Origin: a candidate division FCPU426 bacterium
GTDB taxonomy: Bacteria > Oederibacteriota > Muellerivitia > Muellerivitales > Muellerivitaceae
Length of the DNA stretch: 64,000 nucleotides
Assembly (NCBI GenBank): GCA_027452205.1
Contig: DAIDGV010000003.1
Location: forward strand, 201,399-265,398
Reading direction: 5' to 3'
The notes below the pieces were generated by a model that did not search any database, was not told where the DNA came from, and saw nothing but the letters and a program-made list of their open reading frames with translations. The position numbers and the translations under genes were made by a program. Below are positions 2,417 through 31,928 of the stretch, one piece after another. Each line of letters begins with the position of its first letter. Position 1 is the stretch's first letter.

Positions 2417-3172
2417 CTAATTCCCTGCCCTATCATTTCCGTGACGGGGTGTCCGTCCCCAAACGACCGCACCGACCCATCGCACTCCAGCCGTCTTTAA
2501 GACTTTGGCACATTCTTCCAAAGTGGCTCCCGTGGTCAAAACATCATCAACTAGGACAACTCGTTCCACACCCGCGAGCGCGATGACCTCAAAAGCGCCA
2601 CGAGGATTTTTCAAGCGTTCTTCCCGACTTAATGTTCTTTGTGAAACGTTGGAACGAGTTTTTTGGATGAGCGGAAGGACAGGTATATCCGTTCCGATCG
2701 ATATCTGATGCGCTAAAAGTGCCGAAGGGTTATACCCCCGCTCTCTTTCTTTTTCGGGGTTCATTGGCACAGGGATCAAAGCTTGGACTTCTTTCCAAAA
2801 GGAACCGGCTATCGGAATCGTGATCTTATGGGCTAAGGGTATGGCCAAATGTTCCATACCTTGGAATTTGAAAGCATGGTGGGCCAGACGCAGAGCGCCT
2901 TCATAGGGTCCCAAAGAACGGACCGTATCTAAATGGGATGGCATTTCCCCGCAATCAAGACAACGTGGCTCGCCAACCCCCTCAAAGGCTCTTTCTGGAA
3001 GGGATATGCCGCATCGTTCGCAAACCGGGGACCGATAGGGTTCAATCCGATCAAAACAAACCGAACAAAGCACATTAGAAAGCCCTTGGCTGAAGGCAGA
3101 GCCGCAACAAACGCAAACTTTCGGGAAGAACAGATCAAGGAAAGTGGAGGGAACTTTGGAAAGAACACCCAT
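2417..3172 (-). CDS. comF: ComF-family protein (double zinc-ribbon N-terminus plus phosphoribosyltransferase domain)
   Basis: CxxC...CxxC pairs at the N-terminus and a PRTase motif VLVDDVLTTGAT near the C-terminus, typical of ComFC. Confidence 0.65.
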   Translation of the reverse strand: MGVLSKVPSTFLDLFFPKVCVCCGSAFSQGLSNVLCSVCFDRIEPYRSPVCERCGISLPERAFEGVGEPRCLDCGEMPSHLDTVRSLGPYEGALRLAHHAFKFQGMEHLAIPLAHKITIPIAGSFWKEVQALIPVPMNPEKERERGYNPSALLAHQISIGTDIPVLPLIQKTRSNVSQRTLSREERLKNPRGAFEVIALAGVERVVLVDDVLTTGATLEECAKVLKTAGVRWVGAVVWGRTPRHGNDRAGN

Positions 3173-3175
3173 GGA

Positions 3176-6100
3176 TTATTTAATTACCGCGATCTTTTCA
3201 ATGTCCTGAAGGCCGCTCATTTCGGTGGTGATCATATAAACGCCTGATGCCACAAAGTCCCCACTGGCATTCCGTCCGTCCCACTGCAGAGGGTAATTCC
3301 CGCCGACACCATAAACCCCCACATTAAAATACTGGCTGACCAACTGTTTGATAAACACCCCGCTGATACTATAGACCTTGATAGTCACCGTACTGGGATT
3401 CGTGACCACAAAGCGGACATGCACCACCTGTTCATTGGATGTGCCATAGGGACGTAAGCTGTTTCTGTCCAACGCCACGCTCGCGGTCAAACCCGTGGCG
3501 GTCACGGTATTATAAGTCGTTTCATGGACCATGTTTGGATCATTAGTGTTCACGTTGGGCGGCGCGTCATAAGCCCTGACTAAATAGGTATAGGTAGTCC
3601 CATTAATAATCGTGACATCATCCGTATAGCTAGTGGCCGTCGTTCCCTGTGGGTTCAATAATTGATAACTTCCTCCGCCATCACTGGACCGATAAACATG
3701 GTATCCCCCCAACGGATACATGGTCGAAGAATTGAAGTCTGTCACGCCGCTGTTGGCCGCAGTCCAGCTGATGGTATTACCGCTTTGGCCCTGGACCAGG
3801 GTCAAATTCGGATTATCCACCACCGGAGGATGGGCTGGCAGTGCGTTAGCGATCGGGCTATAACCGATCAAGCTGGTATGAGGATCGATCGCGAGGATCT
3901 GATAGTTATAAAGGGTCTTGTCCAACAAGCCCGTGTCAGTGTAATCCAGACCTGTCAATCCGGAAACAATGGTCTGGAAGGACGAAGCCGGGGCCGTTCC
4001 TAATTTTCGTTGAATGGTATAGGTGTAAGCGCTGGCCGCAGCTGTCCCTTGATAGCTCCATCGCAACTGAGCGATCTGATCCCCCGAAACCGCACTCAGC
4101 GTTGTAGGACCCTGGGGCGGTACGGTCAGGGTGACACTATTCGAATACGGGCCGTAGATGTTCTCTCCCGTGGTCGCAATGGCAACCGGCGCCACTTGAT
4201 AGACATAGGCGGACGTATAACCAGTCGTTGTATCCGTATAGGTGGTATTTGTAACGCTCGAAACCGAATAAGTTTGTGTCGTATTCGTTGAAATGGGAGT
4301 GGCTAAGGCTAATCGCTGGATCACGTAACTACCAAAACCAGGGGTAGCGATCTGAGTTACCGGTGACCAATTGAGGATCGCTTGGCTCACCCCCGCTGCC
4401 CCTGACATGGCCAACGGCGGTCCGGCCATGACCGCAACTTCAGTGGTCGGAGCACTTTTGAGCCCCGCTGAGATATCGTCCATATAGTAGAAATACGGTG
4501 TGCCAACCGCCACTTGTGTATCTATATATGGTCCTGAGTGGAAAGGAAGGACTGTTGGCGTTCCGTAAGGTGTCGCTGTGCCTGAGACCAATGCTTTATA
4601 AACCTCATAGGCTGTGACTGGCGCGCTTCCCGTCACTGGCGCCGTCCAATTGAGGGTTACAGCCGCTGAACCTGCCGAAGCCATAAAAACGGAAGGCGGA
4701 TTGGGCCAAACATTGATACCCAAAATGCCTGATAAAGAGAAATTCGCTGTCACCCCCGCACCGTTATCCGAAACGAACTTGTAATAGTTGATGTAACCCG
4801 TCACCGGTGCCGAATCAAAAAGGACCGTAGCAGAACTGCTGAGGCCCCCTATCGTCGTATAGGTCGAAAAACCCGGGTCTGTGGAACGATAAACCGTACA
4901 TTCTTGGGCCGCGCCGCTCGGGAAAGTAATGCCAGATATCCAGACCCCCGGCGTGGGGGTTTGAACAACGCTATAGCCCGTCGGCGTGTTCATAGAAACT
5001 ACTGGCGTGATGGTAGGAACTGGGAAGACGGTCAAGGTCACCGAACTATTACTTGGTCCGCCTGAATTATTGGCGATCACGTAATAAGTCGAAAGAACAC
5101 CTGGGCTTTCAGAGAATACCGCCGACATGGTCGCTGCCGGAACTACTGGAGCACCCGCGACCCCATTGTGGTAAACCGTATAAGTCGCGACATTGTCCGA
5201 CGCGGGGTTATTGAGCCAGAACAAGGTAGTCGCACTTGAGCTTGTATTGGCAACGAGTCCACCTGGCACATTGGGCCAGGTATTCACCGTACCAGGGGCT
5301 GATCCGCTGATCGAAACCGGGCTCTCGGCTACCGGGGTTCCAAGACCATTTGTGGAGCGTTGTGTGACAAAATAAGAATAAAGAACCGCGGGCGAAGCCG
5401 ACGTATCCAGATAACCCGAACTGCCCACGGCAACCGTGGCGATAGGCCTGTATTGAAGGTCCCCTCCCGGGGTCGGCGTGGCCGAAGACCGGTAAATGAC
5501 CCAATGGTCAATGTTCGGTGTTGTATCCGGCATAGGGGTCACATTCCATGACACCGTCACCCCTTGAGCCGGGGATTGAACGACTGCCGTCACATTATAA
5601 GTTGGGGCTGAAATGGCCGAAAAGGACACAGCCTGACTAGCACCAACCGAGTTGTAAGCGACCAAATAATAAGGTGTTGCGGCCCCCAAAGGCGGAAGGG
5701 GTGCTGGGAAAGGGGTCTCCGTTGGTCCAATGGTGTACTCAGGCGTAGGCGGGATCGTCCAAGTTGGGTAATCGGAGCCATAAACTTGATAATTCGTGAT
5801 ATTGTCCGCCTCTGGGTTCATTATCCAGCGCCAGGTCATGTTTGTTGCCGTTTGGATCGCAGGAAGAATCGTCGGCGTTTTTGGAACATATCCAGGCACA
5901 CTATTCGTCGTGATCATATTGGATAAGACCGCTAGGTCCGAAATATTCCCAAAATTATCGATGGCACCCACCGCGTAAGACACCCCGGTGCCGGAAGCGG
6001 CGTCCACGTAATCATTCCGACTGGACAAACTCGCCGATACGGTCGAAACCATGGTGGGTGTTCCCCCATTTACCACCCGGTAAATGGCATAATGACTTAT

Positions 6101-7684
6101 CGTCCCAAACAATCCCGGCAAGGCCCCTGACCAGGAAATGTTAACTTGGTTATTTGTGTTGGCTATTTGATTAGCAATCACAGTTGTGACCGGGGTCGGC
6201 GCCCAATGCTGGGTCGACGAGACCGTATCACCCAAGACCGGGATGGTCGCGGCCCCTGTTGGAATGCCATAGAAAGGTTGTACCCAATAGGAATTACTGG
6301 AATCCGTCACGGTATCGACCGCTATCAGGGTAGGTGTTTGGGAAGGCGTTTCAATGATGGTGGCGAAAGGCAAGGGCGTGAATGTGGGTGACGGTGTGCC
6401 TGCCACCCAGGTCACAACGGGGTAAGGAACTGGCGGCGCTCCGCTCAGGCCTTTATAAACGTTATATCCTTTAATCCCATAAGTTCCGGGGTTGCCCTGG
6501 ATCCAAGTGATGGTCACCGCATCATTAGTCGGGTTAGCGGTCACCGTCATCCCCCCGTTCATCGAAGGTCGGATGATGGAGCCATCAAAAACATTGGAAG
6601 TGACTGCCCCGTTGTTATTGATCGATGCGATGGAATAAGCCAAAGCCGGTCCGCCAGCAGCCACCGGTAACAGGGTCGTATCGAGATAAGTGAAGGTGGG
6701 CGTCGTCGTCGGAGGGACCAAGATCGTCGCGATGGCCGTTCCATTGGATAGGACCTTGAATTGGGTCACCGTTTCGACCGGCAAGGGCGGATTCCAGAAA
6801 AGTTGAACGCCATAGACAGGGGTCGCGTTAGGGGTCATGGTCGGCGTTACCGCCGGCACATACCCGGACAGGAACGGGGTCACGGGCGGCAAGTTATTAT
6901 TCGCCAGGGCCCCAAAGGTAGTGACCGTCGGGTAAGACCCGGTTACCCCATTACTATCGACACCTAATACCGTATAAAAAACCGATGTGGCGCCCGTAAT
7001 GGTCGCCGCTTGTTGATCGGAATAAGAAGGCGTCATGACAGTGGCCACAAAGGTCGGCACCGCCGTCAAGAAAGTTGAAACAGGCATGGTATTCCCTGTC
7101 GGGATAGTGGCCGATGTTTGACGATAGATGTAGTAAGAGGCGACCGGAAAAGTCGACAAGGGGATCCCCCAAGTCAGGTCCAAAGCGTTGTTGTGAATGT
7201 TCTGGACAGAGGGACTGATCGCCGCGGGCGCGGTATAAGGCAAGGCGGTCACCCGTGCCGAAGGGCCATTACCTGAGGCGTTTATCCCCCAGATCGAGTA
7301 CTGGTAAACGATACCGTCGGTCACTTGAAAGTCGGTCAAAGCAGGGGTCGTTGTTGAGGCGACCAAGGAAGAAGATTGCACAATAGCGATCGGTGTCGAG
7401 GTCGGCACCGGTGTTTCCGTTGGAGGGCCACCCGGGGTATCAGTGAACGTTGGTGAGTAATAAACATCCCGGGCAATAGCGTAATTGGTCGCGGCGGGAA
7501 CAGCTTGCCAGATCAAATTGACCTGCCCGCTATAAGGGCTCATGGTCGCGACACCCAACGGCGCCGCCGGCACCTGGGCCCCAACCACCGCGGCAAGGGC
7601 CAGAAACAACACGATTGAAAAAAGGATAGTCTTCTGCCCGTTCAAACGAAGATCCTTTGGGTGAAATGAGCTGAGAGGATCCAT
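3176..7684 (-). CDS. 1502-aa secreted surface protein with many tandem fibronectin-III-like modules and a C-terminal T9SS type-A (Por_Secre_tail / FlgD-Ig-like) sorting domain
   Basis: N-terminal signal peptide (ILFSIVLFLALAAVVGAQ). Repeated modules with W...Y.VYR/Y.V.A motifs, T/P/S/V-rich. The last ~80 aa carry VTIKVYSISGVFIKQL...WDGRNASGDFVASGVYMI...KIAVIK. Start codon overlaps the stop of the upstream giant gene (TGATG at 7682-7686). Confidence 0.6.
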   Translation of the reverse strand: MDPLSSFHPKDLRLNGQKTILFSIVLFLALAAVVGAQVPAAPLGVATMSPYSGQVNLIWQAVPAATNYAIARDVYYSPTFTDTPGGPPTETPVPTSTPIAIVQSSSLVASTTTPALTDFQVTDGIVYQYSIWGINASGNGPSARVTALPYTAPAAISPSVQNIHNNALDLTWGIPLSTFPVASYYIYRQTSATIPTGNTMPVSTFLTAVPTFVATVMTPSYSDQQAATITGATSVFYTVLGVDSNGVTGSYPTVTTFGALANNNLPPVTPFLSGYVPAVTPTMTPNATPVYGVQLFWNPPLPVETVTQFKVLSNGTAIATILVPPTTTPTFTYLDTTLLPVAAGGPALAYSIASINNNGAVTSNVFDGSIIRPSMNGGMTVTANPTNDAVTITWIQGNPGTYGIKGYNVYKGLSGAPPVPYPVVTWVAGTPSPTFTPLPFATIIETPSQTPTLIAVDTVTDSSNSYWVQPFYGIPTGAATIPVLGDTVSSTQHWAPTPVTTVIANQIANTNNQVNISWSGALPGLFGTISHYAIYRVVNGGTPTMVSTVSASLSSRNDYVDAASGTGVSYAVGAIDNFGNISDLAVLSNMITTNSVPGYVPKTPTILPAIQTATNMTWRWIMNPEADNITNYQVYGSDYPTWTIPPTPEYTIGPTETPFPAPLPPLGAATPYYLVAYNSVGASQAVSFSAISAPTYNVTAVVQSPAQGVTVSWNVTPMPDTTPNIDHWVIYRSSATPTPGGDLQYRPIATVAVGSSGYLDTSASPAVLYSYFVTQRSTNGLGTPVAESPVSISGSAPGTVNTWPNVPGGLVANTSSSATTLFWLNNPASDNVATYTVYHNGVAGAPVVPAATMSAVFSESPGVLSTYYVIANNSGGPSNSSVTLTVFPVPTITPVVSMNTPTGYSVVQTPTPGVWISGITFPSGAAQECTVYRSTDPGFSTYTTIGGLSSSATVLFDSAPVTGYINYYKFVSDNGAGVTANFSLSGILGINVWPNPPSVFMASAGSAAVTLNWTAPVTGSAPVTAYEVYKALVSGTATPYGTPTVLPFHSGPYIDTQVAVGTPYFYYMDDISAGLKSAPTTEVAVMAGPPLAMSGAAGVSQAILNWSPVTQIATPGFGSYVIQRLALATPISTNTTQTYSVSSVTNTTYTDTTTGYTSAYVYQVAPVAIATTGENIYGPYSNSVTLTVPPQGPTTLSAVSGDQIAQLRWSYQGTAAASAYTYTIQRKLGTAPASSFQTIVSGLTGLDYTDTGLLDKTLYNYQILAIDPHTSLIGYSPIANALPAHPPVVDNPNLTLVQGQSGNTISWTAANSGVTDFNSSTMYPLGGYHVYRSSDGGGSYQLLNPQGTTATSYTDDVTIINGTTYTYLVRAYDAPPNVNTNDPNMVHETTYNTVTATGLTASVALDRNSLRPYGTSNEQVVHVRFVVTNPSTVTIKVYSISGVFIKQLVSQYFNVGVYGVGGNYPLQWDGRNASGDFVASGVYMITTEMSGLQDIEKIAVIK

Positions 7685-10600
7685 CAGAACTTAGCCTCAC
7701 CAGATAACGAGATCTGCCAAAGAACATAACCCAGGGTTGAGGTCAAATAATCCGTGTAGTACTCATTAATCCCCGTCAACCCAATACGTAAGTTCTTCAA
7801 AGCGTTGTAATCGAACTCGAGTGTACCACGGTATCTTTGGGTTTTGATCTGGTTGTAGGTATATAAAGAATCATTCTCAGTGTAATCACTCAGGAAATTC
7901 GCCTTGAACTCGATGGCATCATGCAGCTGGATCTTCCAGTGGGTGAAAGGAATATGCAACATGAGGTTCGGCGCGAACTTCTGATCGTATTCCGCCGACA
8001 GCTGGTAATCATGTGTATAGGTCGGCACATTCGTGGTGGCCAACCCATTCTGTTCACCTAGTGACTCTTGGAAGCGAATGTTCCCCTGAGACGTCTTGCT
8101 GATCTCATAAGGGAATGTGACACCAAAAATATCGCTTTCAGAATAACTATCGACCTGACTGACGACCGAGCTGTCATACTGCGTGCTATCCGTGTGGGTG
8201 TATTCAATTTGGGCCGAATTCACGCTAAAGCTCAACCACGGGAGGGTAAATATCCTTTTGTTGTAGATCGTAGTGATCCCTAGCGTATCACTCACTTGTT
8301 GCGTGGGGGGGGCGCCCGTATACAGCAATGAATATTGGTCCGTCCAGGAACCGGTGGGGCGAAAATCCCAAACATCGAACAATTTAAAACTCGCGTTCAA
8401 TTGGTCGGTGGTGGATCGTGTCGCCAGCAAAGCAATCTTGTCGATATTGGGATCCGTCGGGTCGATCAGCCACCACTGCTGTCCAAAATTTAATTCTCCC
8501 GCTTGATAACCCGGGATTGAGACAGTGGAGCTGTCCGTCCTTCCACCGAACAAGGTCAAATTGATCTGTTGGAAGAAAGGCAGCCAAGAGCCTGGCGTGA
8601 CGTTCAAGGAATAGTTCACATTGTTCGAGTTGGAGAAGCGTAGCCCATCTTGATAATCTACCGCGTCATACGTGTCGCTACCCGAATAGGTGATCGAGGG
8701 AATGACACCGGGTACCCCCCGATAGACCAATCCTCCCTTGGGCTGGAACTGTTGGACGAAAGGTACCGGTGTCGCCACCGAGCCGGGAACCCCCGGCGAA
8801 TTGGTATTCCCCACCGCGTCGGTCAGCGCCACACTGAACCCCGGCGTGAATACCAAGTTCTTCACAACCTCGGTCGTATTGGTCCAGCCGTAATTTTGCT
8901 GATAGGTCGTGCGATCATACGGCGACAGGAAATTGAAGGTAAAGTCCTGCTGATCATGGGTCAGTGTATAGTTTTCGGTCAATTGGTTCGTGCCAATCGG
9001 GAAGAACCAGAGCTTGGTAGGCATATCATAAGTGCTGATCAAGCTCACCCGCTGTTCGTATTTTTCTGTATTTCCTTGCACCCCGGGTTGGTCCAAATAA
9101 GCCGATTGATAGACATCAACTTCTGAACTGGTGCTACCCGAAAGATTGATGCTGGTCAGACGGCCGAATTCAGGGCCCAGGTCCTTGGTATAAAGGATAC
9201 TGCCGGTGGTCGTATCGATCTGGCTATTGGGAAGGTCCAGGTAATAGGGATTGTTTAGGAGCGCCGTCTCGGTATAAAGCTCTTGATCGGTGAAGGAGAA
9301 TTGGGCCCTCAAAGGCTGTCCGAACAGGTATATCCCACTCGAGGAATAATCCAAACCATATTGAAGCGAGTGTTGAAAATGGGTGGAAGTCTGGTCGATC
9401 TCCGTGAAACCGGAATCTACCTCTCGATAACGGCCGTCGATGACGGCAAAAGGTTTTTTCGGGTCATCACCCAGCACCATTTCCGCGTTCAAACGACGGG
9501 CCGTACCGGTCCGCACATTGGCCGTGTTCGTTCTTAGATTGTCGATCCAAACTTCGCCGGTACGGCCGCCTGGCGGATTGGGAGAAATAAAACCAAAGCT
9601 GATCTGGCTCGCCTTGTTGATATAGGGCGTCCCCACAGTTGTCCGATTCCCGCCGGATCCGTCGATCGCCACATTGACCGCTCCCCAGTTGTCCAGCCCC
9701 AAATTGTTCGCCAGTGATTCCATACTAATGTTGTATTGGTAATAGTCCAACTGGTCATTGCCGATGCGGATGAAAAAGATGTCGCCTTGGTTATAACTAC
9801 GGATATTCATATCCATCGCCAGGTTTTGGTAGTCGGTGAAATCCAGGCCCTGTTGGAAGATGCGGGTCGTATAGTAAATAGGCTTTCCATTGATGTTCCC
9901 AGCCGGGTCATAATCCGCCGAGGAAAGATTGTACGTAATGTCGAGCGACTTCTCATTGAACTGGATGGCATTTTGGTCCTGGCCGGGTTGGATAATAATG
10001 AAGCGCATATTGGGATTGTAGGTCGAGTTCTCGGCTTGACTGATGGAGTTCACGTTGAATTTCGATGGATTGATGGTGACACCCATATCCGCGTTAGCAC
10101 CTGGATCTACCGCCAACTGCCACAAGTTATGCGTGAAATTGATGGTGTCGATCAGGAAATTACCATCGATCGGGGTGCCACTGGTCCCCGTGATCCACAT
10201 TCGCAAACTTTTGACCACAATGGCGTTGGGTGTGCCTTGGCTATGAAAAAAATAAGAAATACCGTTTGATGTAGAGGACTGGTAATCCGGCGACACCAAA
10301 TTCACCGGTATCTTGATCAACTGCCACCCCGACCAATTTGCCCTGATACCATACTCAAAGTAATTATCCTGAGTATTTAAGACACCGGTACCATCCATGT
10401 TCTGCGTAACAAAGCTACCGTTATACTGACCTTCTTGGGAAGTCTCGGGTTGCCCCGGGGAAGAATTGTTGACCACATTGTAATTATTATAGCCTGCCTG
10501 TAAGCCGATGAATCCTAAATCACCATGATTATCGGGCAAGTAATTGAATCCGGCGTGTTGGACGTTATAGGCGAAAGGATTGTTATCAAAAGCGGTATAG

Positions 10601-13600
10601 AATGTGGGTATTCCATAATTCAAGTTTGGATGGGCCTGATTCAGCGGCGAGTCGGAATCGAGGACCGTGACACCGTTCGACGGATCGTTATTGGAGTTTT
10701 CGTTCATGACCCCAAAATCGAACATGATCCATTTATCTTTCCCGTCGTTATAGATCCAAGTTTGGAAATACTGGACCGTAGAAAAGTCTTCCCCTGCCGA
10801 CGAGAGGACTTGCCTCAAACCCGCCCAAGTCGCGTTGGTCAAATGGGCGTAAGGCACCTGCAGAACATTAACCACGTCGCTGGCTTGGTTGGTCTGGGCG
10901 TAAACGTGGCCACCACCACCTGGAATTGCGGTGGACGTATTGATGCCAAAGTCCACTTGGGTCGAGGACACGTCGTCATAAAAACGGACACGATTATTAC
11001 CGCTATCCGCGCCGGCATCATAGGTTCCAGCCTGACTGTTCAAATAGGTCGGCGCGTAGGCAGGCGCAGAAGAGACCAACCAACTACTCGTGTTCAAGGA
11101 AGCCGTAATAGCGCTATCGATCCCTTCCATGTTGTCGACTAAAGCTACCCCTGTCTCGCCTTCGGCATTATAGGTGTCCGGGTTGAAATAACTCTGCGCG
11201 ATTTCACCGGATAGTTTTAGGCTCGCAGGTGGTTTCCATTTTTCAAGTCCTGGGATGATACCCGTGATTGATTTAAGGTCTTCCGAGTCCATCTCATATT
11301 TGGTATCCGCATCGAACAAGGTCAAAGAATTCGGGGTCGACCCCAACTGGGGTGTGTCGTTGGGTTGTTGGGAAGTGTCGAGCAAAAAGGTCGACCCAAT
11401 GAAGAACTTATCGGTAACGTCATACTCCATCCGACCACCGAGGATGTTTTGCGCACCAAAGGAACCAAACGGCGAATATTCATAAGAAACAACGATCTGG
11501 CTGTTAGGCGTCAAGATGCTCTTGTCCTGGAAATCCAGGAAGCCCGATGTGTAATCGATGAAATAATCCGTATCTCTCCGTAAGAGACGCCCATCCAAAT
11601 AAACCGTTTCACTGCCTCTCAAAATATTGATGTTGTCGAGTTTAAAGGTTGTCAGCTGCGTTTTATATCTCAGATGGATCGTATACAGACTGTTCGGAGT
11701 GTTCTGCTGGATGTTGTAAACATCTAAGTTCCCCATCACACCGCCCGCTGCCAAAGGGCTGGCAACTCCATCCTGATTCGGAAAAGGTCGTTCCGGAAAG
11801 TAAAGCGGTGAACTATTGGCAAAATTAACATTTGTTACGCTGATGACATTCAGGTCCAAATTCAAATTATAGACATAAGGATTTGCCGCGGTACCACCCT
11901 GGTTCGTTTGGATGATATTGTTTGTGCCTGTTGAAATGATCTGGAATAGAAAGCCCGGATCCTGCTGGGGCGGTATAAGCTTATCGGTCCCTAACGAGAA
12001 ATAATTCACCAAATACATCGGGCTGAGGACTTTCGAGCTGGTGGTCGAAGTACCCGGGGACCCAACATAATCCTTAATGAGGATGTAGTAAGTGGATCCA
12101 TTATTGCCAGAATCGATAATACCGTTATCGGGAACGTTTAGGATGTCCGTAGAATACTGGCCCAATATCGGTGTCAAGTCCGTGGAAGTGGTACCAAAAA
12201 CGTTCAAACCACGCTTGATTCCACTTTGGTCCGTATACCCGACCGCGACCTGGCTGCTGAGGGATAGGGTACGCAAGAAAGTGATGATCCCGGTCGTGTA
12301 ATCGATGGTGTAATCCCGGCCCGGTAACCAGTGTTCCCACTGGCCGACGAAATTAGGCGTTCCGATCGGGGCATATTGATTGTTGACCGGATTTACCCAG
12401 ATCTGTTCACTGCCGCTCTGGGGCAGATAAGTAGCGGTGGCCTGCGGCCTGGAAATATAGAAATATTTCCAGGGGATATAGGAAATATCCGAATAAGTCT
12501 TGTCGATCTGGGTGGTGTTTCCCGTGAAGACTTTCGTCACCGCGATACCCTTTGTTTGGGCGAAAAAAGATGTAAACCGGAAATTGTCGAATTTGAGCAC
12601 TGCTTGCAGTCCGAATAGCTGCTTACTGAACCCGGCAAACTCGGTGTTGGGCAAGGTCAGCTGCAGGTCACCGAAAGAGACGGTCTGAACCACACTATCT
12701 GGATCCCCATGATAGACGATGGAAATATCTTGTTTGGTCTCGTCCACACCACCGGCGCGATTGACATCGCTATAGTCCACGTTCACATCGACATTACTAC
12801 CGACCTTACCTTTCAAGTTCACGACCAACTCCTGATTAATGGTCGTCGTATTTACCTGATTAGAAACACCGTCCACGTTTGGGCGGTTGAAAGTCTGGAA
12901 AGCGAATGCGGCATCAACTTTTTTATAACCCTGGATCGACAATTGACTGTCAGCGGGCAACTTCAGGTTGATGATATTCTGCTCGGGAACAGCCAGTATC
13001 TTTTCCTGCTCCGGCGCCGTTTGTTTGGCCACTCGGATAGCGGCCAACTGTTCTGTCGATTGAGCGATCTCCATGCCGTTTGGTGTCACCGCCAGTTCAT
13101 CCGAATAAGGGCTCATATTGCCCTGTCCATCCACAGCGGCGACGACATAAAAATAATCCTCGCCATTCTGGGGCAGCAATAAGCTGTTGGAGGCTCCATC
13201 CAAAAAATAGGCCGCGTTCAAGGGCCTGGAATTGACCTGCTTATAACCCATTCCCGGCGTAGTAGAACGATAGACGTTGTAATAGGCGGTACTCGAGCCT
13301 GCGGGCGAGGTATCCCAAGAAAGATAGACCCCTTCCTTAAGGACGATCACCGATACTCCTGTAGGCATGGGCGGCGGGTGGTATATGTAGGTTTTGGAAT
13401 GCGTTGGCACCCCATTCGTGACACCATTCTCAGCATCGATGGATTTAAGCACTCTTGCCTCCTCTTCAGGGCTCAAAGAGAAGTCGCCGGAAACACCTTG
13501 GGAATCCACAGTGGGCACCGGTGAAGCGTTATGCACCGGTCCGTTTCCTGCGGTGGGGATCGGACCCAGCCCATTGGATGCCGGAATAGCCGCCACTGCC

Positions 13601-13746
13601 GTCGCCACGATGGAAGCCTCAGTGGAATGACCCGCCGTGGGCACCACCGTCTGTGCCCATCCCTGATCGATCAGGAGAAAGACGAAAATCCCCAGCCAAA
13701 AAGGGGGTCGCTTAGGCATTTTGATATTCAATATGCAACCGACCAT
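7684..13746 (-). CDS. 2020-aa giant secreted beta-rich outer-membrane protein; SprA-like T9SS translocon candidate (hypothesis)
   Basis: Signal peptide (MPKRPPFWLGIFVFLLIDQGWAQ; alternative start at the second Met). An FN3-like module near the N-terminus, then ~1800 aa of N/T/S/Y/D/G-rich sequence with alternating-hydrophobic beta-strand patterns. C-terminal residue is Phe (LWQISLSGEAKF). SprA is the only family of this size and type known to me. Confidence 0.5.
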   Translation of the reverse strand: MVGCILNIKMPKRPPFWLGIFVFLLIDQGWAQTVVPTAGHSTEASIVATAVAAIPASNGLGPIPTAGNGPVHNASPVPTVDSQGVSGDFSLSPEEEARVLKSIDAENGVTNGVPTHSKTYIYHPPPMPTGVSVIVLKEGVYLSWDTSPAGSSTAYYNVYRSTTPGMGYKQVNSRPLNAAYFLDGASNSLLLPQNGEDYFYVVAAVDGQGNMSPYSDELAVTPNGMEIAQSTEQLAAIRVAKQTAPEQEKILAVPEQNIINLKLPADSQLSIQGYKKVDAAFAFQTFNRPNVDGVSNQVNTTTINQELVVNLKGKVGSNVDVNVDYSDVNRAGGVDETKQDISIVYHGDPDSVVQTVSFGDLQLTLPNTEFAGFSKQLFGLQAVLKFDNFRFTSFFAQTKGIAVTKVFTGNTTQIDKTYSDISYIPWKYFYISRPQATATYLPQSGSEQIWVNPVNNQYAPIGTPNFVGQWEHWLPGRDYTIDYTTGIITFLRTLSLSSQVAVGYTDQSGIKRGLNVFGTTSTDLTPILGQYSTDILNVPDNGIIDSGNNGSTYYILIKDYVGSPGTSTTSSKVLSPMYLVNYFSLGTDKLIPPQQDPGFLFQIISTGTNNIIQTNQGGTAANPYVYNLNLDLNVISVTNVNFANSSPLYFPERPFPNQDGVASPLAAGGVMGNLDVYNIQQNTPNSLYTIHLRYKTQLTTFKLDNINILRGSETVYLDGRLLRRDTDYFIDYTSGFLDFQDKSILTPNSQIVVSYEYSPFGSFGAQNILGGRMEYDVTDKFFIGSTFLLDTSQQPNDTPQLGSTPNSLTLFDADTKYEMDSEDLKSITGIIPGLEKWKPPASLKLSGEIAQSYFNPDTYNAEGETGVALVDNMEGIDSAITASLNTSSWLVSSAPAYAPTYLNSQAGTYDAGADSGNNRVRFYDDVSSTQVDFGINTSTAIPGGGGHVYAQTNQASDVVNVLQVPYAHLTNATWAGLRQVLSSAGEDFSTVQYFQTWIYNDGKDKWIMFDFGVMNENSNNDPSNGVTVLDSDSPLNQAHPNLNYGIPTFYTAFDNNPFAYNVQHAGFNYLPDNHGDLGFIGLQAGYNNYNVVNNSSPGQPETSQEGQYNGSFVTQNMDGTGVLNTQDNYFEYGIRANWSGWQLIKIPVNLVSPDYQSSTSNGISYFFHSQGTPNAIVVKSLRMWITGTSGTPIDGNFLIDTINFTHNLWQLAVDPGANADMGVTINPSKFNVNSISQAENSTYNPNMRFIIIQPGQDQNAIQFNEKSLDITYNLSSADYDPAGNINGKPIYYTTRIFQQGLDFTDYQNLAMDMNIRSYNQGDIFFIRIGNDQLDYYQYNISMESLANNLGLDNWGAVNVAIDGSGGNRTTVGTPYINKASQISFGFISPNPPGGRTGEVWIDNLRTNTANVRTGTARRLNAEMVLGDDPKKPFAVIDGRYREVDSGFTEIDQTSTHFQHSLQYGLDYSSSGIYLFGQPLRAQFSFTDQELYTETALLNNPYYLDLPNSQIDTTTGSILYTKDLGPEFGRLTSINLSGSTSSEVDVYQSAYLDQPGVQGNTEKYEQRVSLISTYDMPTKLWFFPIGTNQLTENYTLTHDQQDFTFNFLSPYDRTTYQQNYGWTNTTEVVKNLVFTPGFSVALTDAVGNTNSPGVPGSVATPVPFVQQFQPKGGLVYRGVPGVIPSITYSGSDTYDAVDYQDGLRFSNSNNVNYSLNVTPGSWLPFFQQINLTLFGGRTDSSTVSIPGYQAGELNFGQQWWLIDPTDPNIDKIALLATRSTTDQLNASFKLFDVWDFRPTGSWTDQYSLLYTGAPPTQQVSDTLGITTIYNKRIFTLPWLSFSVNSAQIEYTHTDSTQYDSSVVSQVDSYSESDIFGVTFPYEISKTSQGNIRFQESLGEQNGLATTNVPTYTHDYQLSAEYDQKFAPNLMLHIPFTHWKIQLHDAIEFKANFLSDYTENDSLYTYNQIKTQRYRGTLEFDYNALKNLRIGLTGINEYYTDYLTSTLGYVLWQISLSGEAKF

Positions 13747-13770
13747 ACGAGCGACCGATCCTTTATCAAC

Positions 13771-14520
13771 TTAATCCAGGTCCAATACTTTCTTAAGCTC
13801 ATCCAATCGATCCCGGCTGACCGGCAACCGCGTCTTGAGTGGATCCGACAGGACGGCGAGATATTTCCTGTCGCCCTCGTGTTCCAATTCCTTGAGATAA
13901 TCGAGATTAATAACAGCGCTACGGTGGATCCGGAGGAATTTTTGTGGATCCAACCGTTTGATCAAAGCGTCCAGGCTGTCGTCCGCCGTTAGTTCTTGCC
14001 CTTCCACCCGCAAGACCGCGTAATGGTCTTTTGCGACGACCGCGGAGATGAATGACGGATCGAACACCTTGTATTTCGAACCACATTTGATCGCCATACG
14101 CCGTTTTGTGCGGCCCTCATCTAGGCGCGCGACCAGGTCCCTTAGATGACCCGCGTTGGCGCCCTCTTTCCTTTTGCGTATACGTTCCAAGGTCTCCGCT
14201 AACCGCTCGGGAGAAACCGGTTTTACCAAATAATCTGCGGCGGAAAGTTCAAAAGCGCGCAAGGCGTGCTCACTGTAAGCTGTCACAAAGACCACCACCG
14301 GGCCTTTGTCCCCCAGGGTTTCTGCCACTTCCAGGCCGTTCAGCTCAGGCATTTCAATGTCCAGGAACAAGAGGTCTGGTTCCAATTTTTGTGCGCTTTG
14401 CAGGGCTTCTACCCCATTGGAGGCTTCCCCGACCACTTCCAGGTCCGGAAAGGCCGCCAACATTCGATGGAACCGGGCCCGGGCCGGTGCTTCGTCATCC
14501 GCGATAAGGACCTTGATCAT
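13771..14520 (-). CDS. LytTR-family response regulator (REC + LytTR DNA-binding domain)
   Basis: MIKVLIADDE...LDIEMPELNG receiver domain. C-terminal LytTR-type domain (KFLRIHRSAVINLDYLKELE). Confidence 0.85.
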   Translation of the reverse strand: MIKVLIADDEAPARARFHRMLAAFPDLEVVGEASNGVEALQSAQKLEPDLLFLDIEMPELNGLEVAETLGDKGPVVVFVTAYSEHALRAFELSAADYLVKPVSPERLAETLERIRKRKEGANAGHLRDLVARLDEGRTKRRMAIKCGSKYKVFDPSFISAVVAKDHYAVLRVEGQELTADDSLDALIKRLDPQKFLRIHRSAVINLDYLKELEHEGDRKYLAVLSDPLKTRLPVSRDRLDELKKVLDLD

Positions 14521-15824
14521 GACTTCCCCTTTTCCGGCGTCGAGACCTTGTTCAAAGGCAAGGAGATCACTAACCGAGCGCCTCCCTTTTTACCGGCTGT
14601 GACCTCTAATGTGCCTTCAGCCCCAAATTCCAAGTTCAACCGTTTTCGGCAATTTTCCAAAGCTGTTCCGGACCCCGCATAAGGAGAGTTTCCAAAGCCC
14701 ACCCCATCGTCCTCGACCGAAAGGGCCAATTGATTCTCTTGTTTCCCTACCTCAACCCATATATGCCCGCCACCCGCCCTGGAGGAGATGCCGTGCTTGA
14801 CCGCGTTCTCCACCAAAGGCTGCAAGATCAAAACGGGCACTTGAATGTTTTCAAGGTCCAACCCTTCGGCGACCTTGATGCGAGAGACCAGTCGGGCGCC
14901 AAAACGGCTCTTTTCAATGTCTAAATAATCTCGGCAAAATTCCAATTCCTTTTTCAGGGCATGATTCGTTTTACGGGTCGCTTCCAAGACCGCTTGGAAC
15001 AAGGAAGAAAGTTTAATCACCACCTGTTCCGCCTTGGCAGGATCCTCAGGGATCAAAGAAGCAACTGTGTTGAGCGTGTTGAAAAGGAAATGCGGGTTCA
15101 TTTGGTCCTTGAGCTTGGTCAAAAGCGCTTGAAGTCTTTCCTTCTCCAATTCTTCAGCGCGCAGGCGACTGGACCGAGCGGCATCCCGCAGTTCTTCCCA
15201 TGATTTCACGAAAAAAAAGACCAAGAGCAACATCCACCCCCAAAAGGTCTCGCTGCCGTAATATTCCCAATGGAACTCTGGTGTAATTGGATCGCCCACG
15301 AAGGTCCAGTTGATGAGATAAACGATCAATCGCAAGGCCAAATAAAGACCCGGTGGTACGAGAATGGCCATGAAAAGAAGGAACCATCCCGTCCCGTGAA
15401 GGGGACGGCTCTTCCCTTGTCGTCCATACCAGAACTTTTCCCCGATTAAGTAGGACCAAATGATCAACATGGCGAACAAGCCAATGAAGGTCGCTTCAAG
15501 GAAGCTCCACCCCCACCTAAAACCGATGGATTGAAGGGAACCCTTCTCATAGATCAGGCTCATCAAGAAACTGGAAAAAGGGTTCCAGATGAAAAGGAGT
15601 TTAAGAAACGAGACCAAAAAGTTCCGCTCAAAATTAAGCGAAAAGAGCCATTTCCACACCCGGTTCATGCGTCGTTCCTTCCCGCTGTTGAAATTGACTA
15701 CCTGTATCCGAGAAACCCCCGGGAACCCCTCTAATACATCCCAAATCATAGCAATTCCGCCTTGGTTGATGGTTATTTTTGGTCCTAGGCAAGACCTGTT
15801 TTGATCCACGCTCTTAAGATACAA
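14517..15824 (-). CDS. LytS/YehU-type sensor histidine kinase (polytopic membrane N-terminus + His_kinase + HATPase_c)
   Basis: Multi-TM N-terminal half. HFLFNTLNTVASLI (PF06580-type His kinase motif). GGHIWVEV...DDGVGF ATPase region. Overlaps the LytTR gene by 4 nt. The real start may be the internal Met at about 15668. Confidence 0.8.
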   Translation of the reverse strand: MYLKSVDQNRSCLGPKITINQGGIAMIWDVLEGFPGVSRIQVVNFNSGKERRMNRVWKWLFSLNFERNFLVSFLKLLFIWNPFSSFLMSLIYEKGSLQSIGFRWGWSFLEATFIGLFAMLIIWSYLIGEKFWYGRQGKSRPLHGTGWFLLFMAILVPPGLYLALRLIVYLINWTFVGDPITPEFHWEYYGSETFWGWMLLLVFFFVKSWEELRDAARSSRLRAEELEKERLQALLTKLKDQMNPHFLFNTLNTVASLIPEDPAKAEQVVIKLSSLFQAVLEATRKTNHALKKELEFCRDYLDIEKSRFGARLVSRIKVAEGLDLENIQVPVLILQPLVENAVKHGISSRAGGGHIWVEVGKQENQLALSVEDDGVGFGNSPYAGSGTALENCRKRLNLEFGAEGTLEVTAGKKGGARLVISLPLNKVSTPEKGKS

Positions 15825-15909
15825 CCCTTACCCAAAGACCGGGGACAGCCGGTCCTCAATGGACGAAAAGCTGTCGTGAGCCGCCGGAAGCGGGGCCTCG
15901 GCTTGCCCC

Positions 15910-15937
15910 TTGGGATGATAGAGCGCTGTGCTATACT
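15910..15937 (+). promoter_or_regulatory. candidate sigma70-type promoter for lptF (TTGGGA-16-TATACT)
   Basis: TTGGGA at 15910-15915, 16-nt spacer, TATACT at 15932-15937. GAGG Shine-Dalgarno and TTG start follow at 15958-15968. Confidence 0.3.
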
Positions 15938-15965
15938 GCGACCCACCACAGCAACCGAGGCTTTT

Positions 15966-17105
15966 TTGAGAATCACCTATCGATACATCCTTCAAGAAAT
16001 GGCGCCGACTTTCTTGGTGGCGGTCGCCATGCTGACCTTCCTTTTCATGACCAACCGTGTCTTTCTTTTGTTGGACCTGATCCTCAACAAAAAAGCCCCT
16101 CTCGGCGATACTCTGGTGCTTTACCTAAGCTTGATGCCCTTTGTTCTCTCCTTTACCATTCCCATGTCCATGATGGTGGCTACCCTTTTGGCCTTTGGCC
16201 GCTTGAGTTCGGACATGGAAGTGACCGCCTTCAAGAGTAGCGGCATCCATGTCTTTCACCTGATCGCACCGGTCCTGGTATTCGGTATGGTGATGACCGG
16301 CATCATGCTCTTTTTCAACGACCGCATCCTGCCAGCGGCTAATTACGCGTTCAAAGAGACCCATTTCAAGATCCTCCAAAAACAGGCAAATGTGGCCATA
16401 CGGGAAAGGATCTTCATCGACCAATTCGAGGGTTACCAGTTCTATATTGACCACCTCAGTCCTGACGGCCTGTTCAATCAGGTGAAGATGTTCAACCGCT
16501 GGTCAGGCAAAGCACCCCTGCAGACCACAGTGGCCAAGACTGGCAATCTGGAATCAGATCCCCAAAAGTACCAAATGTTCTTTCATCTGAACGACGGGGT
16601 CATGAGCTGGGAAAACAATAATTACCAGACCTACAACCGACTCTATTTCCAGCACTACACCATCCATTTAAAGTTGGAGAACCAGTTGGCAAAGATGTCC
16701 GACATCAAGAAGGATTATGAGGAAATGACCTTGGGTGAGCTTTCTTCCGAGATCGGCAAGACCACCGACGAAAGCCGGGAGCGGTCCCTTCACATCGAAT
16801 TTCAAAAACGGATCTCCATGCCCTTCGCTTGCGTCATCTTGATCTGGTTCTGCGCCCCCTTAGGTCTATGGACCCGTTCAAAGGGTTTTATCGGCTTCAT
16901 CTTGGGATTGGCCATGATCTTCGTTTATTACCTGATGTTCACCGTTGGACAGATCATGAGCGAAAGGGGTGTTATGGATCCTGTCATCGGCTGTTGGTGG
17001 CCCAACCTTCTCTTGTTCGTCGTTGGCGCCTTCATTTATTATCTGGTGGTATCCGAAAATTCCGCATTCAAGAACCTGCCTGGTTTTCCCGGCGGCAAAG
17101 GTTGA
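15966..17105 (+). CDS. lptF: LptF/LptG-family LPS export permease (YjgP/YjgQ)
   Basis: ORF track starts at 15801, but the conserved N-terminus (RITYRYILQEM...) aligns with the paralog MRILTRYILKEF. Likely TTG start at 15966 with GAGG 5 nt upstream. 6 TM segments plus a periplasmic beta-jellyroll region. Confidence 0.7.
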   Translation: MRITYRYILQEMAPTFLVAVAMLTFLFMTNRVFLLLDLILNKKAPLGDTLVLYLSLMPFVLSFTIPMSMMVATLLAFGRLSSDMEVTAFKSSGIHVFHLIAPVLVFGMVMTGIMLFFNDRILPAANYAFKETHFKILQKQANVAIRERIFIDQFEGYQFYIDHLSPDGLFNQVKMFNRWSGKAPLQTTVAKTGNLESDPQKYQMFFHLNDGVMSWENNNYQTYNRLYFQHYTIHLKLENQLAKMSDIKKDYEEMTLGELSSEIGKTTDESRERSLHIEFQKRISMPFACVILIWFCAPLGLWTRSKGFIGFILGLAMIFVYYLMFTVGQIMSERGVMDPVIGCWWPNLLLFVVGAFIYYLVVSENSAFKNLPGFPGGKG

Positions 17106-17115
17106 TTGACAAATA

Positions 17116-30680: not shown

Positions 30681-30694
30681 GACCTGTCCAAAAT

Positions 30695-31164: not shown

Positions 31165-31200
31165 TCCTTTACAAAGGTGTTAATGAACAACGGGGCTACT

Positions 31201-31910: not shown

Positions 31911-31928
31911 TCTTTAACTCCACATTAT

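What the first reader, a model, noticed from the sequence alone, without database searches (positions are those of the whole stretch)
7684..13746. 2020-aa protein has an FN3-like module at the N-terminus of a putative giant barrel and two candidate starts
After the signal peptide there is a clear FN3-like unit: VIVLKEGVYLSWDTSP...YYNVYRSTTPG...YFYVVAAVDGQGNMSPYSDE. It precedes the long beta-rich region. The ORF has two in-frame Mets 27 nt apart; the second (MPKRPPFWLG...) gives a canonical signal peptide. If this is SprA-like, an FN3 cap would be a lineage-specific elaboration. If not, this is a novel class of giant OMP.
Basis: partly seen in the sequence, partly recalled or inferred. Interest (0 to 1): 0.55.

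Follow-up and report, generated by a model that had tools for sequence, protein, structure and literature searches.

The report
Divergent SprA secretion pore with FN3

Summary
The minus-strand ORF 7684-13746 encodes 2020 aa. It has two in-frame ATGs 27 nt apart, a Sec-type signal peptide, an FN3 domain at about residues 124-226, and an invariant C-terminal Phe.

The protein is not a new class of outer-membrane protein. From residue 264 to the C-terminus it is a full-length but only about 16% identical homologue of SprA/Sov, the T9SS translocon. This rests on a family profile against PDB SprA (E=1.5e-60), hhalign (probability 100%), and Foldseek of the AF2 model (E=2e-34).

The window comes from candidate division FCPU426. 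Relatives occur in Goldbacteria-, Coatesbacteria-, Firestonebacteria- and Elusimicrobia-labelled MAGs, all annotated "hypothetical".

The FN3 is specific to certain clades: one copy here, three in a sister clade, none in Firestonebacteria or Elusimicrobia. It occupies the position of SprA's periplasmic N-terminal segment, so "cap" is probably wrong.

FN3-bearing translocons usually have a gene for an FN3-repeat protein with a T9SS-type C-terminal domain immediately downstream. Here that protein has 13 repeats and its start overlaps the translocon's stop codon.

PorV/PorQ-like genes sit next to sprA-like genes in related lineages, but not in this clade. I could not test whether a GldKLMN motor is present.

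Verdict: a new variant of a known kind.

The parts
7684..13746 (-). sprA-like gene, 2020 aa including the stop codon at 7684-7686
   Evidence: ORF. NCBIfam TIGR04189 scores 203.3 bits against a cut-off of 200. More than 100 homologues.
13759..13764 (-). AAAGGA Shine-Dalgarno-like motif, 12 nt upstream of ATG1
   Evidence: Read from the sequence. Conserved in the 90%-identical orthologous locus L077. The spacing is longer than the 5-9 nt seen at other genes of the window.
13654..13746 (-). Signal peptide, residues 1-31 counted from ATG1. The alternative start ATG2 is at 13717-13719. Predicted cleavage is GWA|QT.
   Evidence: Read from the sequence: basic n-region (K9, K12, R13), hydrophobic core FWLGIFVFLLI, small residues at -3 and -1. 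No predictor program was available.
13432..13476 (-). Conserved acidic motif LSPEEEARVLKSIDA (residues 91-105) within the low-complexity N-terminal linker
   Evidence: Conserved as LSPxEEIxILDAIDAxSN in the FCPU426 clade. AF2 predicts a helix at residues 93-104 with low confidence.
13069..13377 (-). FN3 domain, residues ~124-226
7687..12957 (-). SprA-homologous barrel core, residues 264-2020
   Evidence: hhalign against canonical SprA: probability 100%, E=1.6e-103, 1511 aligned columns. Profile against PDB 6h3i_A: E=1.5e-60. AF2 plus Foldseek.
7687..7716 (-). C-terminal beta-signal-like strand ...WQISLSGEAKF, with invariant Phe2020
   Evidence: F2020 is invariant in 64 sequences and in 25 sequences. 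The last AF2 strand ends at residue 2018.
3176..7684 (-). Downstream gene for a 1502-aa protein: signal peptide, 13 FN3-like repeats (residues 39-1387) and a T9SS-type C-terminal domain. Its ATG overlaps the sprA-like TGA by one base (TGATG).
   Evidence: Orthologues sit downstream in the FCPU426 clade.
3179..3448 (-). C-terminal sorting-domain-like region of the downstream protein (...WDGRNASGDFVASGVYMITTEMSGLQDIEKIAVIK)
   Evidence: Matches the C-termini of PorZ (1.3e-6) and PorU (5.8e-4); TIGR04183 only 0.03. Pfam FlgD_ig 1.5e-5. The family profile hits the PorU and PorZ CTDs in the PDB and proteins annotated as T9SS type A sorting-domain proteins.
13771..15824 (-). Upstream two-component pair: LytS-type histidine kinase (14517-15824) and LytTR response regulator (13771-14520), 24 nt before the sprA-like ATG
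   Evidence: Pfam. Conserved upstream in about 20 FCPU426 loci, clusters c7 and c8.
15801..18204 (+). lptF/lptG pair, transcribed divergently from the operon
   Evidence: Pfam LptF_LptG. Found within 3.5 kb upstream of sprA-like genes in 41 of 50 evaluable loci.
2417..3172 (-). comF-family gene 3 nt after the cargo gene's stop codon
   Evidence: A comF gene lies downstream of sprA-like genes in 37 of 59 loci.

Best explanation
The gene encodes a highly divergent member of the SprA/Sov family, the single-chain giant beta-barrel that forms the outer-membrane translocon of type IX secretion. The host bacterium belongs to candidate division FCPU426.

After Sec export and signal-peptide cleavage (after Ala31), residues 264-2020 insert into the outer membrane as the SprA-type barrel. 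Residues 32-263 stay in the periplasm. They comprise a low-complexity linker, a conserved acidic helix motif, one FN3 domain and a second linker. They occupy the place of the N-terminal segment that in Flavobacterium SprA docks the periplasmic SkpA/SprE assembly.

The translocon is translationally coupled to its likely principal substrate, a 1502-aa protein with 13 FN3 repeats and a T9SS-type C-terminal domain. The barrel would export this protein to the cell surface. The periplasmic FN3 most likely serves as a docking module, either for that cargo or for a periplasmic partner.

Shown: homology, fold, domain layout, gene linkage, distribution among clades.
Inferred: topology of the FN3, secretion function, the cargo relationship, the role of the FN3.
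For: Homology:
- TIGR04189 scores 203.3 bits against a cut-off of 200, and 25 of 25 sampled family members match it.
- The family profile hits PDB SprA 6h3i_A at E=1.5e-60.
- hhalign against 13 canonical SprA: probability 100%, E=1.6e-103, with query 264-C-terminus aligned to SprA profile 151-2116 of 2142.
- AF2 of residues 821-2020 (pLDDT 85.6) finds SprA chains first (E=2.3e-34 to 9.7e-31). Other barrels follow only at about 1e-5.
- Phe2020 is invariant.

Diderm host: lpxA, lpxC-fabZ, lpxD, lpxI, skp and lptFG are in the window.

FN3.

Periplasmic position: the canonical SprA N-terminus is periplasmic and needed for transport (PMC10994853), and the alignment with SprA starts only after the FN3.

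Cargo link:
- One-base stop/start overlap; 13 FN3 repeats plus a CTD.
- The CTD resembles those of PorU and PorZ and T9SS type A tails.
- The same CTD sits on M6 and S8 peptidases, beta-helix and Kelch proteins near sprA-like genes in other lineages.
- FN3 on the translocon co-occurs with an FN3+CTD gene immediately downstream in 22 of 28 evaluable loci (plus 4 truncated), against 0 of 22 FN3-less loci.

T9SS context in relatives: the order sprA-like -> CTD protein -> PorV/PorQ-like occurs in L028, L033, L048 and L059, and PorV/PorP-like genes lie near sprA-like genes in Firestonebacteria and Elusimicrobia loci. The PorV/PorQ-like profile hits PDB PorV at 6.3e-16.
Against: - No PorV, PorU, PorZ or GldKLMN gene is in the 64-kb window or within 10 kb of sprA-like genes in the FCPU426 clade.
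That search is word-limited, so this is weak negative evidence.
- The window protein's own CTD is below the TIGR04183 and Pfam cut-offs.
- Pfam SprA_N does not hit this sequence even at E<=10.
- Identity to SprA is about 16%, and the core is roughly 450 residues shorter, so function may have drifted.
- The topology of the FN3 is inferred, not modelled in the context of the barrel.
- The co-variation counts are not phylogenetically independent; they come from about 3-4 clades.
- The conserved lptFG neighbourhood could point to another outer-membrane role.
Confidence: 0.7

Rival explanations
1. It is a minimal, dedicated exporter. The SprA-like barrel works with its co-encoded FN3-repeat cargo as a self-contained pair, without the GldKLMN/PorKLMN motor-ring or the PorU/PorZ attachment complex. 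The periplasmic FN3 would replace the SkpA/SprE docking apparatus.
For: - Tight translational coupling with one cargo.
- No other T9SS gene in 64 kb.
- The SkpA-binding N-terminus is not detectably conserved; the hhalign alignment starts at SprA column 151.
- The gene sits in a conserved housekeeping cluster, lptFG | sprA-like - comF - gap - pgk.
- FN3 presence tracks the FN3-repeat cargo.
Against: - T9SS genes are normally scattered, so absence from 64 kb says little.
- Related lineages have PorV/PorQ-like genes and several different CTD proteins next to sprA-like genes, which suggests a multi-substrate system.
- Whole genomes could not be searched.
Confidence: 0.2
2. It has the SprA fold but a different job: a giant outer-membrane barrel acting in envelope biogenesis (linked to LPS transport) or in uptake, not in protein secretion.
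For: - lptF/lptG are adjacent and divergent in 41 of 50 loci across several phyla, and lpx genes and skp are nearby.
- Identity to SprA is only about 16%.
- TonB-dependent receptor genes follow the sprA-like gene in L030 and L058. I assigned these by eye from the translated sequence and did not scan them.
Against: - Homology covers the whole barrel.
- CTD-tagged proteins and PorV/PorQ-like genes recur beside the gene in independent lineages.
- A conserved gene order with housekeeping genes may simply reflect vertical inheritance.
Confidence: 0.08
3. The FN3 is an extracellular cap or adhesin module displayed on the cell surface.
For: FN3 domains are common in surface proteins. The neighbouring surface-cargo candidate is built of FN3 repeats.
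Against: - The FN3 lies about 40 residues before the first SprA-homologous residue.
- The SprA chain enters the membrane from the periplasm after a periplasmic N-terminal segment (PMC10994853).
- The SprA cap is made of inserts between strands, not of the N-terminus (as summarised there).
Confidence: 0.06

Closest known systems
SprA (Flavobacterium johnsoniae; PDB 6H3I, 6H3J, 8GL6, 8GL8) and Sov (Porphyromonas gingivalis), the T9SS outer-membrane translocon (NCBIfam TIGR04189)
   Same: A giant single-chain beta-barrel. Homology is detectable over essentially the whole barrel. Both have an N-terminal extension before the barrel. Both are associated with proteins carrying a C-terminal sorting domain.
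   Different: - About 16% identity; no phmmer hit to the PDB; no Pfam SprA_N hit.
- The core is about 1757 aa, against about 2200.
- The N-terminal SkpA-binding segment is replaced by a linker, an acidic helix and an FN3.
- The host is candidate division FCPU426, outside Bacteroidota and the FCB group in NCBI taxonomy.
- The gene is translationally coupled to a cargo gene and embedded in an lptFG/comF/gap/pgk cluster.
T9SS type A C-terminal domains (Pfam PF18962 Por_Secre_tail, TIGR04183), including the CTDs of PorU (6ZA2) and PorZ (5M11)
   Same: An 80-90-residue C-terminal beta-sandwich tag of about the same size, with a GxY motif and Lys near the end. The profile hits the PorU and PorZ CTDs. 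10 of 18 family members hit PF18962. The tag is attached to diverse passengers.
   Different: The window's own copy scores below the curated cut-offs and is closer to FlgD_ig. Cleavage and A-LPS attachment are untested.
PorV/PorQ family (NF033709; PorV in PDB 6H3I chain F)
   Same: Genes of this family lie next to sprA-like genes and CTD-protein genes in the Coatesbacteria-labelled, Firestonebacteria-labelled and Elusimicrobia-labelled loci.
   Different: None was found in the window or in the +/-10 kb flanks of the FCPU426 clade to which the window belongs.

Membership tests
SprA/Sov T9SS translocon (TIGR04189) | Score at or above the curated whole-protein cut-off of the family model | tested here: met
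   203.3 bits against a cut-off of 200, E=4.2e-60. This is marginal. 25 of 25 sampled relatives match the model, best E=1.2e-77.
SprA/Sov T9SS translocon (TIGR04189) | Homology across the whole barrel, not just one domain | tested here: met
   hhalign gives 1511 aligned columns, with query 264 to near the C-terminus against SprA profile 151-2116 of 2142, probability 100%. The PDB profile hit to 6h3i_A has an envelope of 133-2379.
SprA/Sov T9SS translocon (TIGR04189) | Pfam SprA_N domain (PF14349) | tested here: not met
   No Pfam hit for this sequence even at E<=10. Some relatives (P0030, P0031, P0049, P0064 and others) carry a precomputed PF14349 hit. The region does align at profile level.
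SprA/Sov T9SS translocon (TIGR04189) | Giant (36-strand) transmembrane beta-barrel fold | tested here: inconclusive
   Only residues 821-2020 could be modelled (pLDDT 85.6, long strand hairpins). The top Foldseek hits are SprA. Strand number and barrel closure were not determined.
SprA/Sov T9SS translocon (TIGR04189) | Conserved periplasmic N-terminal segment that binds SkpA/SprE | tested here: not met
   The N-terminal 263 residues do not align with SprA. They hold an FN3 instead. The basis for this feature is PMC10994853.
Type IX secretion system (as a system) | Substrates with a C-terminal sorting domain | tested here: met
   The adjacent 1502-aa protein ends in a CTD related to those of PorU and PorZ and to type A tails. 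The window's copy is sub-threshold for TIGR04183 (E=0.03).
Type IX secretion system (as a system) | PorV carrier protein in the same genome | tested here: inconclusive
   Absent from the window and from the flanks of the FCPU426 clade. Present beside sprA-like genes in 11 loci of other lineages.
Type IX secretion system (as a system) | GldKLMN/PorKLMN motor and ring, PorU sortase, PorZ, SprE/PorW | not testable with these tools
   Only 64 kb of this genome and +/-10 kb flanks of relatives were available. None of these genes is in the window.
Type IX secretion system (as a system) | Host in Bacteroidota or the FCB superphylum | tested here: not met
   The closest genomes are candidate division FCPU426 (GAPDH 92.5% and PGK 91.5% identical to L001). 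NCBI taxonomy lists this phylum under Bacteria incertae sedis. The literature restricts T9SS to Bacteroidetes or the FCB group (PMC4793230).
Fibronectin type III domain (Pfam PF00041) | Sequence match above the Pfam gathering score | tested here: not met
   15.4 bits against a cut-off of 25, E=0.023 on the isolated segment.
Fibronectin type III domain (Pfam PF00041) | Seven-strand FN3 beta-sandwich fold | tested here: met
   AF2 block-mean pLDDT is 86-97 over residues ~120-229. The 50 listed Foldseek matches are overwhelmingly FN3 domains or FN3-containing proteins, with target-normalised TM-scores of about 0.6-0.8 for single-domain targets. The family profile hits titin and ChiA1 FN3.

The most novel reading that the evidence does not exclude
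FCPU426, Goldbacteria-, Coatesbacteria-, Firestonebacteria- and Elusimicrobia-type bacteria carry an old, vertically inherited, stripped-down relative of type IX secretion. It would consist of an SprA-type barrel, CTD-tagged substrates and sometimes a PorV/PorQ-like protein, and would work without the Bacteroidota motor-ring and SkpA/SprE dish. In the FN3-bearing clades, the translocon's periplasmic FN3 domain(s) would act as a built-in receptor that feeds one dedicated FN3-repeat surface protein into the pore. That would place the origin of the T9SS translocon outside the FCB group and offer a simpler model of how it works.
Probability: 0.2. Interest if true: 0.7.

Novelty: new variant of a known kind. 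Interest (0 to 1): 0.45.

Why it matters
T9SS is described in the literature as confined to Bacteroidota or the FCB group (PMC4793230; reviews listed).

Here, full-length SprA homologues are part of a conserved housekeeping gene cluster in several non-FCB candidate phyla. All are annotated as hypothetical. They lie next to CTD-tagged proteins and, in some lineages, PorV/PorQ-like genes.

This widens the known range of the translocon family. It also provides natural variants of the functionally essential periplasmic N-terminus: none, one or three FN3 domains in place of the SkpA-binding segment.

If whole genomes show that the motor is missing, this would be a simpler system for asking what the barrel needs in order to export folded proteins. 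If the motor is present, the finding is a routine extension of T9SS to new phyla with a modest domain novelty.

Tried and rejected
- Single-sequence searches failed. Pfam gave no hit at E<=0.01 or E<=10, and phmmer against the PDB gave none at E<=1. Only profiles revealed SprA.
- I checked whether other T9SS genes are in the window. Four Pfam scans of all large ORFs found only housekeeping genes, two-component systems and LPS genes. Local HMMs for PorV/PorQ and for the CTD found nothing else in the window.
- I tried to place PorV/PorQ-like genes in FCPU426 genomes by matching the contig lengths of hits to the large FCPU426 contigs. There was no match. The search is word-limited, so this is not proof of absence.
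- The CTD profile search returned mainly short fragments. These confirm the relationship to T9SS type A tails but say nothing about the FCPU426 genome.
- Neighbours of the Coatesbacteria-like loci (glycosyltransferase/TPR, symporter, aminopeptidase, RHS, purL/purF, secD) looked unrelated by eye and were not scanned.
- Literature: no paper in the library links SprA or T9SS with FCPU426, Firestonebacteria, Goldbacteria or Elusimicrobia. The 2018 SprA structure paper is not held.
- Recent domain transfer from the cargo gene is rejected. The translocon FN3 is only about 25-31% identical to the cargo repeats.
- A promoter-like site whose -10 element overlaps ATG1 would favour ATG2. It is not conserved in L077, and promoter-like sites are no more frequent than in shuffled sequence, so I give it no weight.
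- The search of protein representatives was not used. The alignments available exceed its 1200-position limit, and it returns no taxonomy or context.

Full report
**The observation**

The minus-strand ORF 7684..13746 encodes 2020 residues. Met1 (13746) and Met10 (13719) are 27 nt apart.

After them comes a basic stretch (K9, K12, R13), then the hydrophobic core FWLGIFVFLLI, then GWA|QT. This is a Sec-type signal peptide whose predicted cleavage site after Ala31 does not depend on which Met is used (read from the sequence).

The C-terminus ...WQISLSGEAKF ends in a Phe that is invariant in 64 aligned homologues.

**Is the FN3 real?**

- On the single sequence, Pfam fn3 reaches only E=0.023.
- A profile of 64 family members hits solved FN3 domains: titin at 1.8e-6 and the FN3 of Bacillus chitinase A1 at 0.0023.
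- AlphaFold2 on residues 80-330 with 31 homologues gives block-mean pLDDT of 86-97 for residues ~120-229.
- The 50 listed Foldseek matches to that model are overwhelmingly FN3 domains or proteins that contain one. Single-domain targets give target-normalised TM-scores of about 0.6-0.8, and the best rmsd values are 2.8-3.8 A.

The FN3 is therefore confirmed at about residues 124-226.

**What the large protein is**

Single-sequence searches against Pfam and the PDB find nothing. NCBIfam TIGR04189 (T9SS outer-membrane translocon Sov/SprA) scores 203.3 bits against a cut-off of 200, and 25 of 25 sampled relatives match that model.

The family profile hits F. johnsoniae SprA (6H3I) at E=1.5e-60.

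A profile-profile comparison with 13 canonical SprA proteins gives probability 100%, E=1.6e-103 and 1511 aligned columns. It runs from query residue 264 almost to the C-terminus, against SprA profile columns 151-2116 of 2142, at 16% identity.

AlphaFold2 on residues 821-2020 gives mean pLDDT 85.6. From about residue 1397 to 2018 it shows an uninterrupted series of long strand hairpins. The four best Foldseek PDB matches are SprA chains (E=2.3e-34 to 9.7e-31). Other large barrels (MtrB, TonB-dependent transporters, LptD) follow only at about 1e-5.

"A novel class of giant OMP" is also excluded. This is a far-diverged SprA-family barrel with a core about 450 residues shorter than Flavobacterium SprA.

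**Whose genome it is**

A scan of 185,579 species genomes gives as the best locus a "candidate division FCPU426" MAG from a bog (L001, 67% identity). About 20 further FCPU426 loci follow at 40-62%.

Neighbouring housekeeping proteins are 85-93% identical to those MAGs (GAPDH 92.5% and PGK 91.5% to L001).

The window encodes lpxA, an lpxC-fabZ fusion, lpxD, lpxI, skp and lptF/lptG, so the host has an LPS outer membrane.

More distant relatives at 23-30% identity come from MAGs labelled Goldiibacteriota, Coatesbacteria, Firestonebacteria, Elusimicrobia and (doubtfully) Clostridia. All that carry a name are "hypothetical protein".

NCBI taxonomy places FCPU426 among unplaced candidate phyla. The literature I could search describes T9SS as restricted to Bacteroidetes or the FCB group (PMC4793230; titles and abstracts). 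It holds no paper linking SprA or T9SS with these phyla.

**Where the FN3 sits**

Homology with SprA starts at residue 264, so residues 32-263 are an extra N-terminal extension. It consists of:

- an Ala/Pro/Thr/Gly-rich linker;
- a conserved acidic motif LSPEEEARVLKSIDA, predicted as a helix with low confidence;
- the FN3;
- a second linker.

In F. johnsoniae the N-terminal segment of SprA is periplasmic. It is disordered on its own, folds inside a SkpA trimer, ties the SprE/PorD "dish" to the pore, and is required for transport (PMC10994853). The extracellular cap of SprA is a different part of the protein.

By position, the FN3 here should therefore be periplasmic, about 40 residues before the chain enters the membrane. 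This is an inference, because I could not model the FN3 together with the barrel.

The SkpA-binding segment itself is not detectably conserved.

**Distribution of the FN3**

An HMM of the FN3 finds one copy in every member of the window's clade, and one copy in a Coatesbacteria-like group. It finds mostly three copies (two detected in L047 and L075) in a second group labelled FCPU426 or Goldbacteria. It finds none in Firestonebacteria, Elusimicrobia or the "Clostridia" MAGs.

None of the canonical SprA proteins retrieved shows a precomputed fn3 hit.

**The neighbourhood**

The sprA-like stop codon overlaps the start of the next gene by one base (TGATG).

That gene encodes 1502 residues: a signal peptide, 13 tandem FN3-like repeats (residues 39-1387) and a C-terminal domain ending ...WDGRNASGDFVASGVYMITTEMSGLQDIEKIAVIK.

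Evidence on the C-terminal domain:

- It matches the C-termini of PorZ (1.3e-6) and PorU (5.8e-4), and FlgD-Ig. It matches TIGR04183 only at 0.03.
- A profile of 18 such tails from the fetched loci matches Pfam Por_Secre_tail in 10 members (best 3e-8), CHU_C in 10 and FlgD_ig in 16.
- The same profile hits the solved CTDs of PorU (6ZA2) and PorZ (5M11).
- It retrieves proteins that NCBI names "T9SS type A sorting domain-containing protein".

In other lineages the same tail is attached to M6 and S8 peptidases, beta-helix, Kelch and DUF2341 proteins encoded beside the sprA-like gene. This is the behaviour of a sorting signal.

PorV/PorQ-family genes (NF033709 at 106 and 139 bits; profile against PDB PorV 6.3e-16) lie next to sprA-like genes in 11 loci. 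These include the operon order sprA-like -> CTD protein -> PorV/PorQ-like in L028, L033, L048 and L059.

In the window's own clade I found no PorV/PorQ-like gene, neither in 64 kb nor in the +/-10 kb flanks. The window holds no GldKLMN, PorU or PorZ gene. T9SS genes are usually scattered, so this does not settle the matter, and whole genomes were out of reach.

Translocons with N-terminal FN3 usually have an FN3-repeat, CTD-tagged gene immediately downstream. This holds in 22 of 28 fully evaluable loci, plus four cut by contig ends. Among FN3-less translocons it holds in 0 of 22; those are followed directly by comF or other genes.

These counts come from perhaps three or four clades, so they are not independent.

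The translocon FN3 is only about 25-31% identical to the cargo repeats, so a recent copy from the neighbouring gene is unlikely.

The cargo evolves fast (50% identity to L001). The barrel is at 67% and the glycolytic enzymes at about 92%, as expected for a surface-exposed product.

**Gene order**

The order is conserved: lpx genes, lptG/lptF (divergent), then in this clade a LytS-type kinase and a LytTR regulator, then sprA-like, cargo, comF, gap and pgk.

lptFG are within 3.5 kb upstream in 41 of 50 loci. comF is downstream in 37 of 59.

Intergenic gaps from the kinase to comF are 24 nt or less. The first strong terminator-like hairpin lies after gap (1299-1265).

The barrel is thus part of the core genome of these lineages rather than of a mobile island.

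**The two starts**

- ATG1 and an AAAGGA motif 12 nt upstream are conserved in the 90%-identical orthologue, where the ATG2 position reads TAT.
- ATG2 has no purine-rich motif upstream, although many genes of the window have a GGAG-type motif 5-9 nt before the start.
- Against this, three other orthologues also have a Met just before the basic stretch. A promoter-like site whose -10 element overlaps ATG1 exists, but it is not conserved, and such sites are no more frequent than in shuffled sequence.

I favour ATG1, but the choice does not change the mature protein.

**Mechanism, with the shown and inferred steps separated**

Shown:
- an SprA-family barrel with an N-terminal FN3;
- a diderm host;
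- translational coupling to an FN3-repeat protein that carries a T9SS-type tail;
- recurrence of CTD proteins and PorV/PorQ-like genes beside the barrel gene in sister lineages.

Inferred:
- the barrel is the outer-membrane export pore for CTD-tagged proteins, above all its neighbour;
- the FN3 is periplasmic and replaces the SkpA/SprE-docking segment as an attachment point for cargo or for a periplasmic partner.

Unknown:
- the energy source (a GldLM-type motor);
- the carrier protein in this clade;
- processing of the tail.

**Verdict**

This is a new variant of a known kind. The interest is moderate. The family assignment is secure. The extension to non-FCB candidate phyla and the FN3/cargo co-variation are new details. 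Whether this is a full T9SS or a stripped-down relative needs whole-genome searches that these tools could not run.

Noticed in passing
window 30820-34028: A tmRNA gene (30820-31164, minus strand, tag ADNQLALAA) is followed by the lowest-GC stretch of the window (0.397 at 32-34 kb). That stretch holds a weak TIR-like ORF (31929-32609) and an ORF without family hits (33045-34028). A further ORF without hits (29376-30722) lies on the other side of the tmRNA gene. This may be a genomic or defence island inserted at ssrA.
   Followed up: partly
window 15801-18204 and loci L001-L073: lptF/lptG are transcribed divergently from the sprA-like operon in 41 of 50 evaluable loci spanning several candidate phyla. 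comF follows downstream in 37 of 59. It is unexplained whether this reflects a functional link to LPS transport or only a conserved gene order.
   Followed up: partly
window 13771-15824: A LytS-type histidine kinase and a LytTR response regulator sit 24 nt upstream of the sprA-like gene on the same strand. The pair is conserved in the FCPU426 clade. It may regulate the translocon/cargo operon and is a different family from PorXY.
   Followed up: no
window 3176-7684 vs L001 15874-20331: The FN3-repeat cargo is only 50% identical to its closest GTDB-genome orthologue. The adjacent barrel is 67% identical, and GAPDH and PGK about 92%. The cargo evolves fast, consistent with surface exposure.
   Followed up: partly
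loci L028, L033, L048, L059; L037, L051, L053: These are compact T9SS-like islands outside the FCB group. The Coatesbacteria-like MAGs have the order sprA-like -> FN3+CTD protein -> PorV/PorQ-like. The Firestonebacteria MAGs L037 and L051 have CTD proteins and PorV/PorP-like genes just upstream of lptGF | sprA-like; in L053 only the CTD proteins were found.
   Followed up: partly
window 19787-21115: A single ORF fuses LpxC and FabZ. From my own knowledge, this fusion is typical of Bacteroidota and Chlorobiota. It may bear on where FCPU426 belongs, but I did not examine it.
   Followed up: no
window 43287-50209: Three consecutive TPR-rich ORFs: a T2SSE/PilB-type ATPase fused to TPR repeats (768 aa), a TMEM260-like glycosyltransferase with TPR repeats (733 aa) and a TPR protein (786 aa).
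   Followed up: no
window 13742-13769 (minus strand): A promoter-like TTGATA-16 nt-TATGGT site whose -10 hexamer overlaps ATG1 of the sprA-like gene. If real, the transcript would start between the two candidate ATGs. It is not conserved in L077, and such sites are not enriched over shuffled sequence.
   Followed up: partly
window 53799-55202 and 22827-23909: An RHS-repeat ORF (467 aa) and a right-handed beta-helix/NosD-like ORF (360 aa). Neither shows the CTD found on the cargo.
   Followed up: partly
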